Positions 26,341-27,579 of a stretch of DNA of 35,634 bases are shown piece by piece. A program made the translations under genes and the position numbers. The DNA is from Candidatus Thorarchaeota archaeon (GTDB lineage: Archaea; Asgardarchaeota; Thorarchaeia; Thorarchaeales; Thorarchaeaceae): the NCBI GenBank assembly GCA_003345595.1, contig PRDI01000104.1, positions 1 to 35,634 of the forward strand, given 5' to 3'. The notes below the pieces were generated by a model, which was not told where the DNA came from, did not search any database, and was given only the letters and a program-made list of their open reading frames with translations. Each line of letters begins with the position of its first letter. Within the stretch, counting starts at the first letter, position 1.

Positions 26341-27579
26341 CTAGGCTATCTGTGGCTCAAGTGCAGGCATGCTGATGCTCTCATTCGCTAGCCAAAGCTC
26401 TGCGATTTTCTGTATTAGTTCTTGAATGCCAGATCGGGTCACACTTGAGGTTTCAACGAAGGCAACCGGGTGCGGCTGACCGTTGACACCAAGTTGCTGT
26501 GCAATCCTAGCACAGTATGAAGCTCCTTCTTCTTTCGTGACTGGAGGTTCGGGCTCGTCTTCGGTGATGACAGGGTGCTCCCTTAGGTCGGTCTTGGTGC
26601 CAACGATGATGATGGGAGGTGGCACTGGGAACGCTGTCACGACTTCCTTAGTCCAGAAGTCAAGACTGTCGTAACTCCATCGGTCGGCAACTGAGTACAC
26701 GATTACTGCAACTCCGGTACCGGCAAAGAACTCGGTCCTCGGCACCCTGGCTTCCTGCACTTTCTCGAACGGCCATGCGTTTATGCGGACCCTCTTATCT
26801 TTGCAGGATGCTTCTGTACTGTACACGAAAGCCATCCCATCGATGAGATCGTCTGACACGCCTTGAGTCCCCAGTTGCATGCCGCACTCATAGAGTAGGC
26901 TCTTGACTCCCACCTGCTGCTCTCCCAAGATGATGACCTTGACATCTGCCGACTCATCTTGGGTCGGGACAGATATGCGTGGCGTTCCTTCGGTTGGAGC
27001 CTCAATCCCAAGCGGCTCGTCCCACACAAAGTGTTTCGGCGTCGGTGCAGCCTCGACAGGTTCTCGGGTTGGCGGAGGAGCTGCGTCCTTCGGTATGTTC
27101 TCCATGTGGAAGCTGACAATGAGCTCATTGGCCTCATCGCTGTTGGGAACGGTATCCCATATTGTCGTCTTGGCTGCGGTCACAGGCAGTACTCCTACTG
27201 CTTCCGAGAGTTCCGGATTAATGGGCAGCAGCTGTTCGACCTCCTCGTCGAGTCTAGTTTTGCCCAGAGGTGCGAGGTATTTGTCCTTCAGTGATTCAAC
27301 GACGCTCAGTGTCCGGGAGAGTTCAAGAACATCTTCCTTGGTCAGACCCTCCTCAGCGGAAAAAGACTCGGTGTCAGGAAGCCCAACTCTCTTCATGATG
27401 AACTTTAGAATAGCGGGGGGAGTGTTGTAGCCGCGAAGATAGGCAAATCGGTGGATCTCGGATAGAACGTCGGCATAGGTCCGGCTATAGTACTTTACTC
27501 TCTTCATGACCCCCTTGTCGACAATGTCAATGTGACCTGGCTTCAGGCTAATGTCCATCGTCGTACCAGGAACCAGCAC
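26341..27579 (-). CDS. Ras-superfamily small GTPase-like domain (degenerate G1/G3) fused to an N-terminal domain by a Pro/acidic linker
   Basis: VKVIILGEQQVGVKSLL, FFAGTGVAVIVYSV...SYDSLDFW, VGTKTDL and FVETSS. Confidence 0.85.
   Translation of the reverse strand: MLVPGTTMDISLKPGHIDIVDKGVMKRVKYYSRTYADVLSEIHRFAYLRGYNTPPAILKFIMKRVGLPDTESFSAEEGLTKEDVLELSRTLSVVESLKDKYLAPLGKTRLDEEVEQLLPINPELSEAVGVLPVTAAKTTIWDTVPNSDEANELIVSFHMENIPKDAAPPPTREPVEAAPTPKHFVWDEPLGIEAPTEGTPRISVPTQDESADVKVIILGEQQVGVKSLLYECGMQLGTQGVSDDLIDGMAFVYSTEASCKDKRVRINAWPFEKVQEARVPRTEFFAGTGVAVIVYSVADRWSYDSLDFWTKEVVTAFPVPPPIIIVGTKTDLREHPVITEDEPEPPVTKEEGASYCARIAQQLGVNGQPHPVAFVETSSVTRSGIQELIQKIAELWLANESISMPALEPQIA

What the first reader, a model, noticed from the sequence alone, without database searches (positions are those of the whole stretch)
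26380..26946. Pseudo-GTPase: G1 and G3 broken while the guanine-specificity motifs are kept
Seen: G1 reads GEQQVGVKS (the invariant Lys of GxxxxGKS is Val) and G3 reads WPFEK in place of WDTAG (DxxG lost). G4 (TKTD) and G5 (ETSS) are intact and the ORF is full length. Known: the G1 Lys/Ser and G3 Asp bind phosphate and Mg2+, while G4/G5 read the guanine base. Inference: a non-hydrolysing scaffold or guanine-nucleotide sensor, like eukaryotic pseudo-GTPase domains, attached to an unrecognised N-terminal domain of about 120 aa.
Basis: partly seen in the sequence, partly recalled or inferred. Interest (0 to 1): 0.7.

Follow-up and report, generated by a model that had tools for sequence, protein, structure and literature searches.

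The report
Conserved lysine-less Ras-like pseudoGTPase, Thorarchaeia
This Asgard (Thorarchaeia) gene encodes a strongly conserved Ras/Rab-like protein that has lost every residue that grips phosphate and magnesium but keeps the guanine-reading residues. It always sits back to back with a small leucine-rich-repeat gene and a giant membrane-anchored surface-protein gene, so it is probably a non-enzymatic adaptor rather than a molecular switch.

Summary
The ORF at 26341-27579 (-) encodes 412 aa. Its C-terminal Ras-fold domain reads G1 GEQQVGVKS, G3 WPFEK, G4 TKTD and G5 ETSS.

This is not decay or a sequencing error. All 46 aligned clade-A orthologs (43-84% identity) have Val or Ile at the P-loop Lys position and lack DxxG. 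The NKxD Lys and Asp and the G5 Ser are invariant.

The protein belongs to a Thorarchaeia-restricted family. The architecture is a novel ~100-aa N-domain, a disordered Pro/Glu linker and a G domain. The whole family lacks the switch-I Thr and DxxGQ. Loss of the Lys is a later, derived step in this clade.

In every orthologous locus whose contig continues, the gene lies divergent to an orthologous ~210-aa cytoplasmic LRR protein. That gene is followed by an orthologous giant LamG protein (about 4500-5900 aa). Where the giant's C-terminus was read (two same-genus loci), it has one TM helix and a ~245-aa inner tail. The downstream twin ATPases are not conserved neighbours.

Nucleotide binding and partner binding are untested. 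I found no published description. This scan has reported the same family on other genomes.

The parts
26341..27579 (-). Pseudo-GTPase gene, 412 aa from a GTG start. The database copy starts at Met8 and has 405 aa. The PGT motif upstream of Met8 matches the ortholog consensus MxxPGTxxxISLK, which favours the GTG start.
27268..27579 (-). N-terminal domain (residues 1-104): three beta-strands, two helices and a long helix. It has no known fold or family and was found only fused to this G domain.
   Evidence: AF2 pLDDT 83. Best PDB Z is 5.4, below the noise level; Foldseek E >= 0.13. A profile search of 1.84 billion representatives gave 46 clusters, all of this architecture or fragments of it.
26953..27267 (-). 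Pro/Glu-rich linker (residues 105-209), predicted disordered, with conserved short motifs: IWDxVP, LIYSFHxENIP and KFIWDDP.
   Evidence: pLDDT 34-58; clade consensus; composition
26383..26952 (-). Ras/Rab/Rho-like G domain (residues 210-399).
   Evidence: Pfam Ras 2.6e-13; RhoG and Rab sequence hits; Foldseek to Cdc42, Rac and Rab with TM by target 0.72-0.84; pLDDT about 90
26899..26925 (-). Degenerate G1 / P-loop GEQQVGVKS. Val replaces the invariant Lys, and Lys sits at the Ser/Thr position.
   Evidence: Val 30 / Ile 16 of 46
26761..26775 (-). Degenerate G3 WPFEK in place of WDxxG. The catalytic Gln is also absent.
26587..26598 (-). G4 TKTD (NKTD in 45 of 46 orthologs). Lys and Asp are invariant.
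26443..26454 (-). G5 ETSS. Glu and the first Ser are invariant.
26341..26382 (-). Short C-terminal tail plus stop codon. The clade-A motif is W..NERPSMPA.E. It has no Cys, so no prenylation signal.
28034..28663 (+). Divergently transcribed 209-aa LRR-only protein with no signal peptide or TM segment. It is the conserved neighbour and likely partner.
   Evidence: Pfam LRR_8 1.5e-14; orthologs at 46-54% identity next to every ortholog; no hydrophobic segment
28836..35633 (+). Giant surface protein, more than 2266 aa and cut by the contig end. It has a signal peptide and Laminin_G_3/DUF2341 repeats. It is orthologous to the 4500-5900-aa proteins at the related loci.
   Evidence: the TM helix and ~245-aa cytoplasmic tail were seen only in the G023 and G008 orthologs

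Best explanation
The gene encodes a cytoplasmic, non-hydrolysing Ras/Rab-like pseudoGTPase of a Thorarchaeia-restricted family. The architecture is a novel N-domain, a disordered linker with short conserved motifs, and a G domain. The family ancestor had already lost the switch-I Thr and DxxGQ. This clade then also lost the P-loop Lys. Canonical Mg2+-dependent GTP binding, gamma-phosphate sensing and hydrolysis are therefore not possible (shown from sequence; activity is inferred). The guanine-reading NKxD and ETS motifs stay invariant. The pocket may therefore still hold a guanine compound weakly or without Mg2+, which I rate at about even odds (inferred). The protein most likely acts as a fixed-state adaptor, together with the divergently encoded cytoplasmic LRR protein, on the inner side of the adjacent giant type-I surface protein. 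Candidate roles are handling, positioning or reading out that protein's cytoplasmic tail (inferred from conserved synteny only).
For: Motif loss is real and fixed: V/I 46 of 46 at the Lys position, no DxxG, NKxD K and D 46 of 46, G5 S 46 of 46. Selection is evident: mean pairwise identity within clade A is 64% in the G domain and 69% in the N-domain, against 45% in the linker. The wider family keeps NKxD and ETS but never DxxGQ or a switch-I Thr. Eleven canonical paralogs in the same genome have GKT, TIG and WDxAGQ. On the tree the family is one clade (99 SH-aLRT). Clade A (100) is nested beside Lys-bearing sisters, so the Lys loss is derived. Synteny: an LRR ortholog and a giant LamG ortholog lie divergent to the gene in 11 examined loci. 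I saw no counter-example at a primary locus. All three genes diverge in step, at 46%, 46% and 43% identity to G023. The giant protein has a signal peptide, one TM helix and a positive-inside ~245-aa tail. The GTPase and the LRR protein have no hydrophobic segment.
Against: No biochemical datum exists. Nucleotide binding, lack of hydrolysis and every protein contact are inferred. Conserved adjacency within one archaeal family could partly reflect shared ancestry. Co-absence across genomes is not independent evidence, because adjacent genes drop out of fragmented assemblies together. A second copy in G008 sits next to an unrelated giant ORF without an LRR gene. Retention of G4 and G5 could serve fold stability rather than ligand binding.
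Confidence: 0.6

Rival explanations
1. Class-i pseudoGTPase. The domain binds no nucleotide at all and is purely a protein-interaction module; G4 and G5 are kept only because they brace the fold.
For: All phosphate and Mg2+ ligands are gone: Lys16, Ser17, Thr35, Asp57 and Gly60. The residue after the lost Lys varies (K24, N13, S8, G1), so no relocated Lys is conserved. Class-i pseudoGTPases that work through protein contacts are documented, for example AAGAB (PMC12490416).
Against: In the described class-i example AAGAB, the G5 loop has lost its consensus and swings away from the pocket (PMC12490416). Here the NKxD Asp is invariant across roughly 30%-identity family members. From general Ras-family knowledge, that Asp's established role is pairing with the guanine base.
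Confidence: 0.25
2. Non-canonical but active GTPase or switch. Catalytic or binding residues have migrated (for example Lys219 in VKS, or a residue supplied by the N-domain, the linker or a partner), so GTP is still bound and turned over.
For: Pseudoenzyme reviews note that missing motifs are sometimes replaced by migrated residues (PMC10211241 abstract). 24 of 46 orthologs carry Lys one position later, and Ser220 is invariant.
Against: The shifted Lys is replaced by Asn, Ser or Gly in 22 of 46 orthologs. No Gln61, Gly60 or Thr35 equivalent exists anywhere in the family. Switch I is variable and predicted disordered.
Confidence: 0.07
3. The pseudoGTPase is the first gene of a four-gene system with the two co-oriented BrxC/D-like ATPases and the small membrane protein (22220-27579), for example a defence or remodelling machine.
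For: The genes are co-oriented with a 145-bp gap in the window. The same order is found in the 84%-identical relative. There are weak BrxC_BrxD matches, E 0.003 and 0.04, below the cut-off.
Against: None of the nine more distant orthologous loci has these ATPases downstream. They carry other genes there, such as an aaRS, DUF362 or HTH genes. No PADLOC or NCBIfam hit exists for any of the genes.
Confidence: 0.05
4. A recently decayed gene or an assembly or sequencing error in a normal Rab-like GTPase.
For: None beyond the unusual motifs.
Against: The frame is intact. Identical substitutions are fixed in 46 orthologs from many samples, and the G domain is highly conserved.
Confidence: 0.01

Closest known systems
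Canonical Asgard/Thorarchaeota Rab-like small GTPases (for example Thor-Rab of SMTZ1-45, PDB 7EZB; PMC10933270)
   Same: Same Ras-superfamily fold and the same lineage. G4 NKxD and G5 ETS(A/S) match. Both lack a C-terminal prenylation Cys. The own genome carries at least 11 such paralogs.
   Different: Thor-Rab binds GDP/Mg2+ and releases phosphate like human Rab11B (PMC10933270). This protein lacks Lys16, Ser17, Thr35, Asp57, Gly60 and Gln61. It also carries about 210 extra N-terminal residues and scores only 50 bits against Pfam Ras, versus 134-170 bits for 11 of the 12 full-length ~190-aa paralogs (the twelfth scores 95).
Eukaryotic pseudoGTPases (class i: AAGAB psGD, p190RhoGAP pG1/pG2, CENP-M; nucleotide-bound but hydrolysis-dead: Rnd, RhoH)
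   Same: A GTPase fold kept under selection after loss of catalytic motifs, with a presumed protein-interaction role (PMC12490416, PMC5593906).
   Different: There is no sequence relationship beyond the superfamily, and the origin is archaeal. The combination here does not fit the two examples considered. The class-i example read here (AAGAB) has lost its G5 consensus. Rnd and RhoH keep G1 and G3, which is from general knowledge and was not tested here.
ROCO proteins (LRR-Roc-COR, for example LRRK2 and Chlorobium Roco)
   Same: A Ras-like domain is associated with leucine-rich repeats. Pfam Roc scores 27.5 bits against a cut-off of 27.
   Different: The LRR is a separate, divergently transcribed gene. 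There is no COR domain, since the protein ends 13 residues after the G domain. The G domain is degenerate. It is not a ROCO member.
LRR-only scaffolds that bind Ras/Rab proteins (SHOC2-MRAS-PP1C; LRRC57/RABIN, PMC13640479 abstract)
   Same: A small cytoplasmic LRR protein paired with a Ras/Rab-like protein. This is a possible working analogy.
   Different: Those partners are active GTPases bound in a GTP-dependent way. Here no binding is shown and the G domain cannot switch canonically. The resemblance comes from an abstract and general knowledge, not from a test.

Membership tests
Ras superfamily (small GTPase fold) | G-domain fold and sequence profile | tested here: met
   Pfam PF00071 scores 50.3 bits (cut-off 21.6) over residues 214-394. 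Foldseek to Cdc42, Rac and Rab gives E about 1e-12 and TM by target 0.72-0.84.
Catalytically competent small GTPase | G1 GxxxxGK[S/T] | tested here: not met
   The motif reads GEQQVGVKS. The Lys position is V/I in 46 of 46 orthologs.
Catalytically competent small GTPase | G2 switch-I Thr | tested here: not met
   No conserved Thr lies between G1 and G3, while the canonical paralogs have TIG. The region is variable with pLDDT 42.
Catalytically competent small GTPase | G3 DxxG (+Gln) | tested here: not met
   WPFEK here; W[TS]F[PE] in the clade; W[SC]FD[DE]A in the wider family.
Catalytically competent small GTPase | G4 [NT]KxD and G5 (E)[TS][SC][AS] | tested here: met
   TKTD and ETSS are present. 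The G4 K and D and the G5 Ser are invariant.
PseudoGTPase (general) | GTPase fold with catalytic motifs lost, kept under purifying selection | tested here: met
PseudoGTPase (general) | No GTP hydrolysis in vitro | not testable with these tools
   This needs a purified protein and a phosphate-release assay.
Class-i pseudoGTPase | No nucleotide binding | not testable with these tools
   The sequence is ambiguous: the phosphate and Mg2+ ligands are lost but the base-reading residues are invariant.
ROCO | COR domain directly after Roc | tested here: not met
   The protein ends 13 aa after the G domain, and there is no COR hit in Pfam at E <= 0.1.
ROCO | LRR in the same polypeptide | tested here: not met
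   The LRR is a separate divergent gene at 28034-28663.
Rho family | Rho insert helix and TKxD as a family trait | tested here: not met
   T occurs only in this sequence; 45 of 46 orthologs have N. The extra stretch after G4 aligns to the RhoG insert but is modelled as a loop, not a helix.
Rab family (eukaryotic sense) | C-terminal Cys prenylation motif | tested here: not met
   The tail reads ...ANESISMPALEPQIA and has no Cys.

The most novel reading that the evidence does not exclude
The three conserved genes form an Asgard surface-to-cytoplasm module. A giant lectin-like type-I membrane protein would be coupled through its conserved inner tail to an LRR scaffold and to a fixed-state, possibly guanine-sensing, Ras-like protein. 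This would be a prokaryotic counterpart of eukaryotic receptor/LRR/Ras-family scaffolds. In several genomes it lies beside the ESCRT gene cluster.
Probability: 0.2. Interest if true: 0.85.

Novelty: new variant of a known kind. Interest (0 to 1): 0.6.

Why it matters
Asgard archaea are studied for their many eukaryote-like small GTPases, yet almost none has an assigned partner or role. Their abundant LRR proteins and giant LamG proteins are explicitly described as functionally unknown (10.64898/2026.10.28.762692; PMC11573180). This finding is a conserved archaeal pseudoGTPase with a new domain. It is genomically tied to an LRR protein and to a giant surface protein that carries a cytoplasmic tail. 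That gives a concrete three-protein set that can be expressed and tested. It would also extend the pseudoGTPase concept, so far described mostly in eukaryotes, to the archaeal relatives of eukaryotes.

Tried and rejected
1. A complex prediction of the full-length pseudoGTPase with the LRR neighbour gave 'no answer' (score 0.00, controls not run). It is not evidence either way.
2. Fold searches for the N-domain gave only sub-noise matches: Foldseek PDB E >= 0.13, VIA-wide best Z 5.4, Atlas TM <= 0.38. The language-model look-alike search returned nothing. This does not show that the fold is new.
3. A word-index homolog search with the LRR protein returned no hit at E <= 1e-10, not even its evident orthologs. 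I treat this as a tool-sensitivity failure and collected the orthologs from loci and genome searches instead.
4. The 'ATPase system' idea was rejected by synteny and by the empty PADLOC and NCBIfam searches.
5. A link to ESCRT was considered, because an aaRS plus the Vps22/Vps25/Vps4/Snf7 genes follow the gene in four annotated loci and, by matching ORF sizes, in G023. The link breaks in the window and in three other loci while the LRR/giant link holds. I therefore treat it as inherited gene order.
6. Literature searches for an archaeal pseudoGTPase, or for this family, found no description. The Asgard Arf preprint only mentions unannotated taxon-specific GTPase groups.

Full report
**The gene and the observation**

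The finding lies in the C-terminal half of an intact ORF at 26341-27579 on the minus strand, 412 aa from a GTG start. The public copy of the protein starts at Met8 and has 405 aa. The residues upstream of Met8 (LVPGTT) match the ortholog consensus MxxPGTxxxISLK, so the longer form is probably the real one.

Pfam places a Ras domain at residues 214-394, scoring 50.3 bits against a cut-off of 21.6, with a borderline Roc match. The best solved relatives by sequence are RhoG and various Rabs. By fold they are Cdc42, Rac, RhoA and Rabs.

The ungapped alignment to RhoG pairs GDGAVGKT with GEQQVGVK and WDTAG with WPFEK. I confirmed all four motifs codon by codon on the sequence:
- G1 at 26899-26925
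- G3 at 26761-26775
- G4 at 26587-26598
- G5 at 26443-26454

Switch I also has no Thr.

**Decay or design?**

A homolog search returned 80 proteins, nearly all labelled Thorarchaeota. They fall into two groups.
- Clade A: about 60 sequences at 43-84% identity.
- Clade B: about 20 sequences at about 29% identity.

In the 46 aligned clade-A rows the motif positions read as follows.

| Position | Residues (of 46) |
|---|---|
| P-loop Lys position | Val 30, Ile 16 |
| Next residue | Lys 24, Asn 13, Ser 8, Gly 1 |
| Following Ser | 46 |
| G3 | W-[T/S/P]-F-[P/E...], never DxxG |
| G4 | N45/T1, K46, x, D46 |
| G5 | E46, T41, S46 |

Mean pairwise identity within the clade is 69% in the N-domain and 64% in the G domain, against 45% in the linker. 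This pattern indicates purifying selection on a changed site, not erosion. Within the same genome, 22 of the 23 Ras-family matches show a P-loop, and this protein is the only one without GK[ST]. TKTD, which another note read as Rho-like, is a private substitution of this one sequence.

**The wider family and the order of events**

I built a profile of the N-terminal ~100 residues and searched it against 1.84 billion cluster representatives. It found only 46 clusters. These are 300-570-aa proteins of the same architecture, or fragments of them. The N-domain was never found in another architecture.

Aligning their G domains with eleven canonical paralogs of the own genome gave three results.
- The canonical proteins have GxGxVGKT, TIG and WDxAGQ.
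- Every member of the N-domain family lacks the switch-I Thr and reads W[SC]FD[DE]A in place of WDxxGQ.
- Many members still keep the P-loop Lys (GKS, GKxS). The own-genome paralog on contig C23 reads GEEGVGKSS.

A maximum-likelihood tree (quick search, SH-aLRT support) recovers the family as one clade (99). Clade A is a nested clade (100) beside Lys-bearing sisters (P0083 and P0107, GKQS) and a Met-bearing one (P0082). Loss of G2 and G3 is therefore ancestral to the family, and loss of the Lys is a later, derived step in this clade. The root rests on same-genome paralogs, and deep nodes are weakly supported.

**Structure**

AlphaFold2 with the 58-row alignment gives three regions.
- A confident G domain, with pLDDT about 90 and a disordered switch I.
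- A confident small N-domain: three strands, two helices and a long helix. Its pLDDT is 83 when folded alone.
- A disordered Pro/Glu-rich linker of about 105 residues. It carries short conserved motifs: IWDxVP, LIYSFHxENIP and KFIWDDP.

The N-domain has no significant match in the PDB or the Atlas. It also has no Pfam or NCBIfam family. The protein has no hydrophobic segment and no C-terminal Cys.

**Genomic context**

In the window the gene is divergent from two genes.
- A 209-aa LRR-only gene at 28034-28663, with LRR_8 at 1.5e-14 and no signal peptide or TM segment.
- After it, a giant ORF at 28836-35633, cut by the contig end. It has a signal peptide and Laminin_G_3/DUF2341 repeats.

The same three-gene arrangement occurs at every orthologous locus I could read.
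- The 84% relative.
- SMTZ1-45 and a JGI contig.
- G023 and G008.
- Four further metagenome contigs.

The LRR proteins are orthologs at 46-54% identity. The giant proteins are orthologs too, at 43% identity over the first 800 aa.

I then searched all 87 Thorarchaeia species genomes held. Clade A was found in 27: genus g6 15 of 28, g3 11 of 17, and only the own genome in g1. The LRR ortholog was found in 23. For the 27 genomes with clade A, the result was:

| LRR status | Genomes |
|---|---|
| Adjacent and divergent on the same contig | 19 |
| On another contig end | 3 |
| Contig stops at or near the GTPase gene | 5 |

The other three are inferred from match positions near a contig start. I saw no primary locus where the contig continues and the LRR gene is missing. 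One genome has a weak LRR match (3e-62) without the GTPase.

Because the genes are adjacent, their co-absence from fragmented assemblies is not independent evidence. The evidence is the adjacency itself, kept across three genera and about 45-50% protein divergence. The other flank changes freely over the same range:
- twin ATPases here and in the 84% relative only;
- an aaRS plus the ESCRT genes in four annotated loci, and probably in G023 by matching ORF sizes;
- other genes elsewhere.

Exceptions are extra copies. There are tandem duplicates in three genomes. A second G008 copy lies beside an unrelated giant ORF, with an alpha/beta-hydrolase gene between them.

**Topology of the giant protein**

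The whole giant gene is readable in G023 and G008, at about 5200 and 5900 aa. There it has one TM helix about 260 residues from the C-terminus. A Lys/Arg-rich stretch follows the helix, and then an acidic helical tail of about 245 aa. It is therefore a type-I membrane protein with a cytoplasmic tail.

G023 and G008 belong to one genus, so tail conservation between them says little. However, the same TM-plus-tail module occurs at 32-44% identity on four other giant frames of the own genome. One of these, on contig C102, may be the missing 3' part of the window's gene. This is what makes a functional link between two cytoplasmic proteins and a surface protein physically plausible. That link is inference.

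**Mechanism**

Three things are shown. All residues that contact the beta and gamma phosphates and Mg2+ are absent. All residues that read the guanine base are invariant. The protein is under selection and is genomically tied to an LRR gene and a giant membrane-protein gene.

Three things are inferred.
- It cannot cycle as a GTP/GDP switch or hydrolyse GTP (high confidence).
- It may still hold a guanine compound weakly or without Mg2+. I put this at about even odds. From general Ras-family knowledge, the NKxD Asp's established role is base pairing.
- It acts as a fixed-state adaptor with the LRR protein at the inner face of the giant protein (moderate confidence).

**Rivals**

- A ligand-free class-i pseudoGTPase. 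I treat this as a sub-variant of the main reading.
- A non-canonical active enzyme with migrated residues. This is unlikely, because the shifted Lys is not conserved.
- Membership of an ATPase system. The synteny test failed and the PADLOC search was empty.
- Decay or sequencing error. The ortholog alignment refutes this.

**Comparison with known families**

The protein is a Ras-superfamily member by fold and profile. It fails three of the five motif tests for a competent GTPase.

It is not a ROCO protein, since it has no COR domain and the LRR is in a separate gene. It is not a Rho or a Rab in the eukaryotic sense.

It fits the general definition of a pseudoGTPase. Its mix of lost G1-G3 and kept G4/G5 differs from AAGAB, which has lost its G5 consensus (PMC12490416). 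It also differs from Rnd and RhoH, which keep G1 and G3 (general knowledge, not tested here).

**Novelty**

I found no paper describing an archaeal pseudoGTPase or this family. The Asgard Arf preprint mentions unannotated, taxon-specific GTPase groups 'yet to be investigated'.

This scan has already reported the same family and the same gene trio on other genomes. Those are unchecked AI notes. I reached the present reading before seeing them.

I rate the finding as a new variant of a known kind, with interest 0.6.

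Noticed in passing
window 22220-23887 (-) and 24582-26195 (-): Two paralogous P-loop ATPases of 555 and 537 aa, with only sub-threshold BrxC_BrxD/AAA matches and no PADLOC or NCBIfam hit. A 126-aa hydrophobic ORF (24017-24397) lies between them. The pair follows the pseudoGTPase only here and in the 84% relative, not in more distant orthologous loci.
   Followed up: partly
G000 contigs C39, C102 and C72 (L053-L055); L028:6231-7070: A conserved 'single TM + ~245-aa acidic helical tail' module ends at least four other giant ORFs (2600-3900-aa frames) in this genome. 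It contains a repeated ~50-aa motif ending ...LP.ELAEELLKSI and has no Pfam family. The C102 frame runs from the contig start and may be the missing 3' part of the window's giant gene.
   Followed up: partly
L001 6679-11936; L056-L058 (about 6500-11200); L024 1360-7863: In four annotated orthologous loci the pseudoGTPase is followed by an Asp/Asn-tRNA synthetase-like gene and the ESCRT genes Vps22 (EAP30), Vps25 (ESCRT-II) and Vps4; Snf7 was seen only in L001. G023 (L024) has ORFs of matching sizes that I did not annotate. The order is not kept in the window.
   Followed up: partly
L026 4745-7965 (G000 contig C23); L003 7263-10350: The own-genome clade-B paralog (442 aa, P-loop GEEGVGKSS, G3 WSFDTA) has its own conserved neighbours. 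One is a 213-aa multi-pass membrane protein, convergent, 59% identical between two genomes, with no Pfam family. The other is a 186-aa divergent ORF at the position of the phosphoribosyltransferase gene (Pfam Pribosyltran) in L003.
   Followed up: partly
G058:C87 50270-52865; G070:C6 66669-69245; G072:C51 18247-20835: Three genomes carry tandem duplicates of the clade-A pseudoGTPase next to the LRR gene.
   Followed up: no
L028 7073-19006 (G023); L052 8550-9254 (G008): The giant LamG gene is directly followed by a second giant gene (3977 aa in G023) with its own signal peptide, TM helix and a ~415-aa tail.
   Followed up: no
window 13527-15017 (-): A second, larger LRR protein (496 aa; LRR_8, LRR_4, LRR_5) lies in the same window. 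The genome has many LRR genes: 14 matches to the LRR profile at E <= 1e-20.
   Followed up: no
window 27580-28033: The divergent intergenic region between the pseudoGTPase and LRR genes is about 455 bp here, against 110-360 bp at the related loci. I did not examine it for promoters or small RNAs.
   Followed up: no
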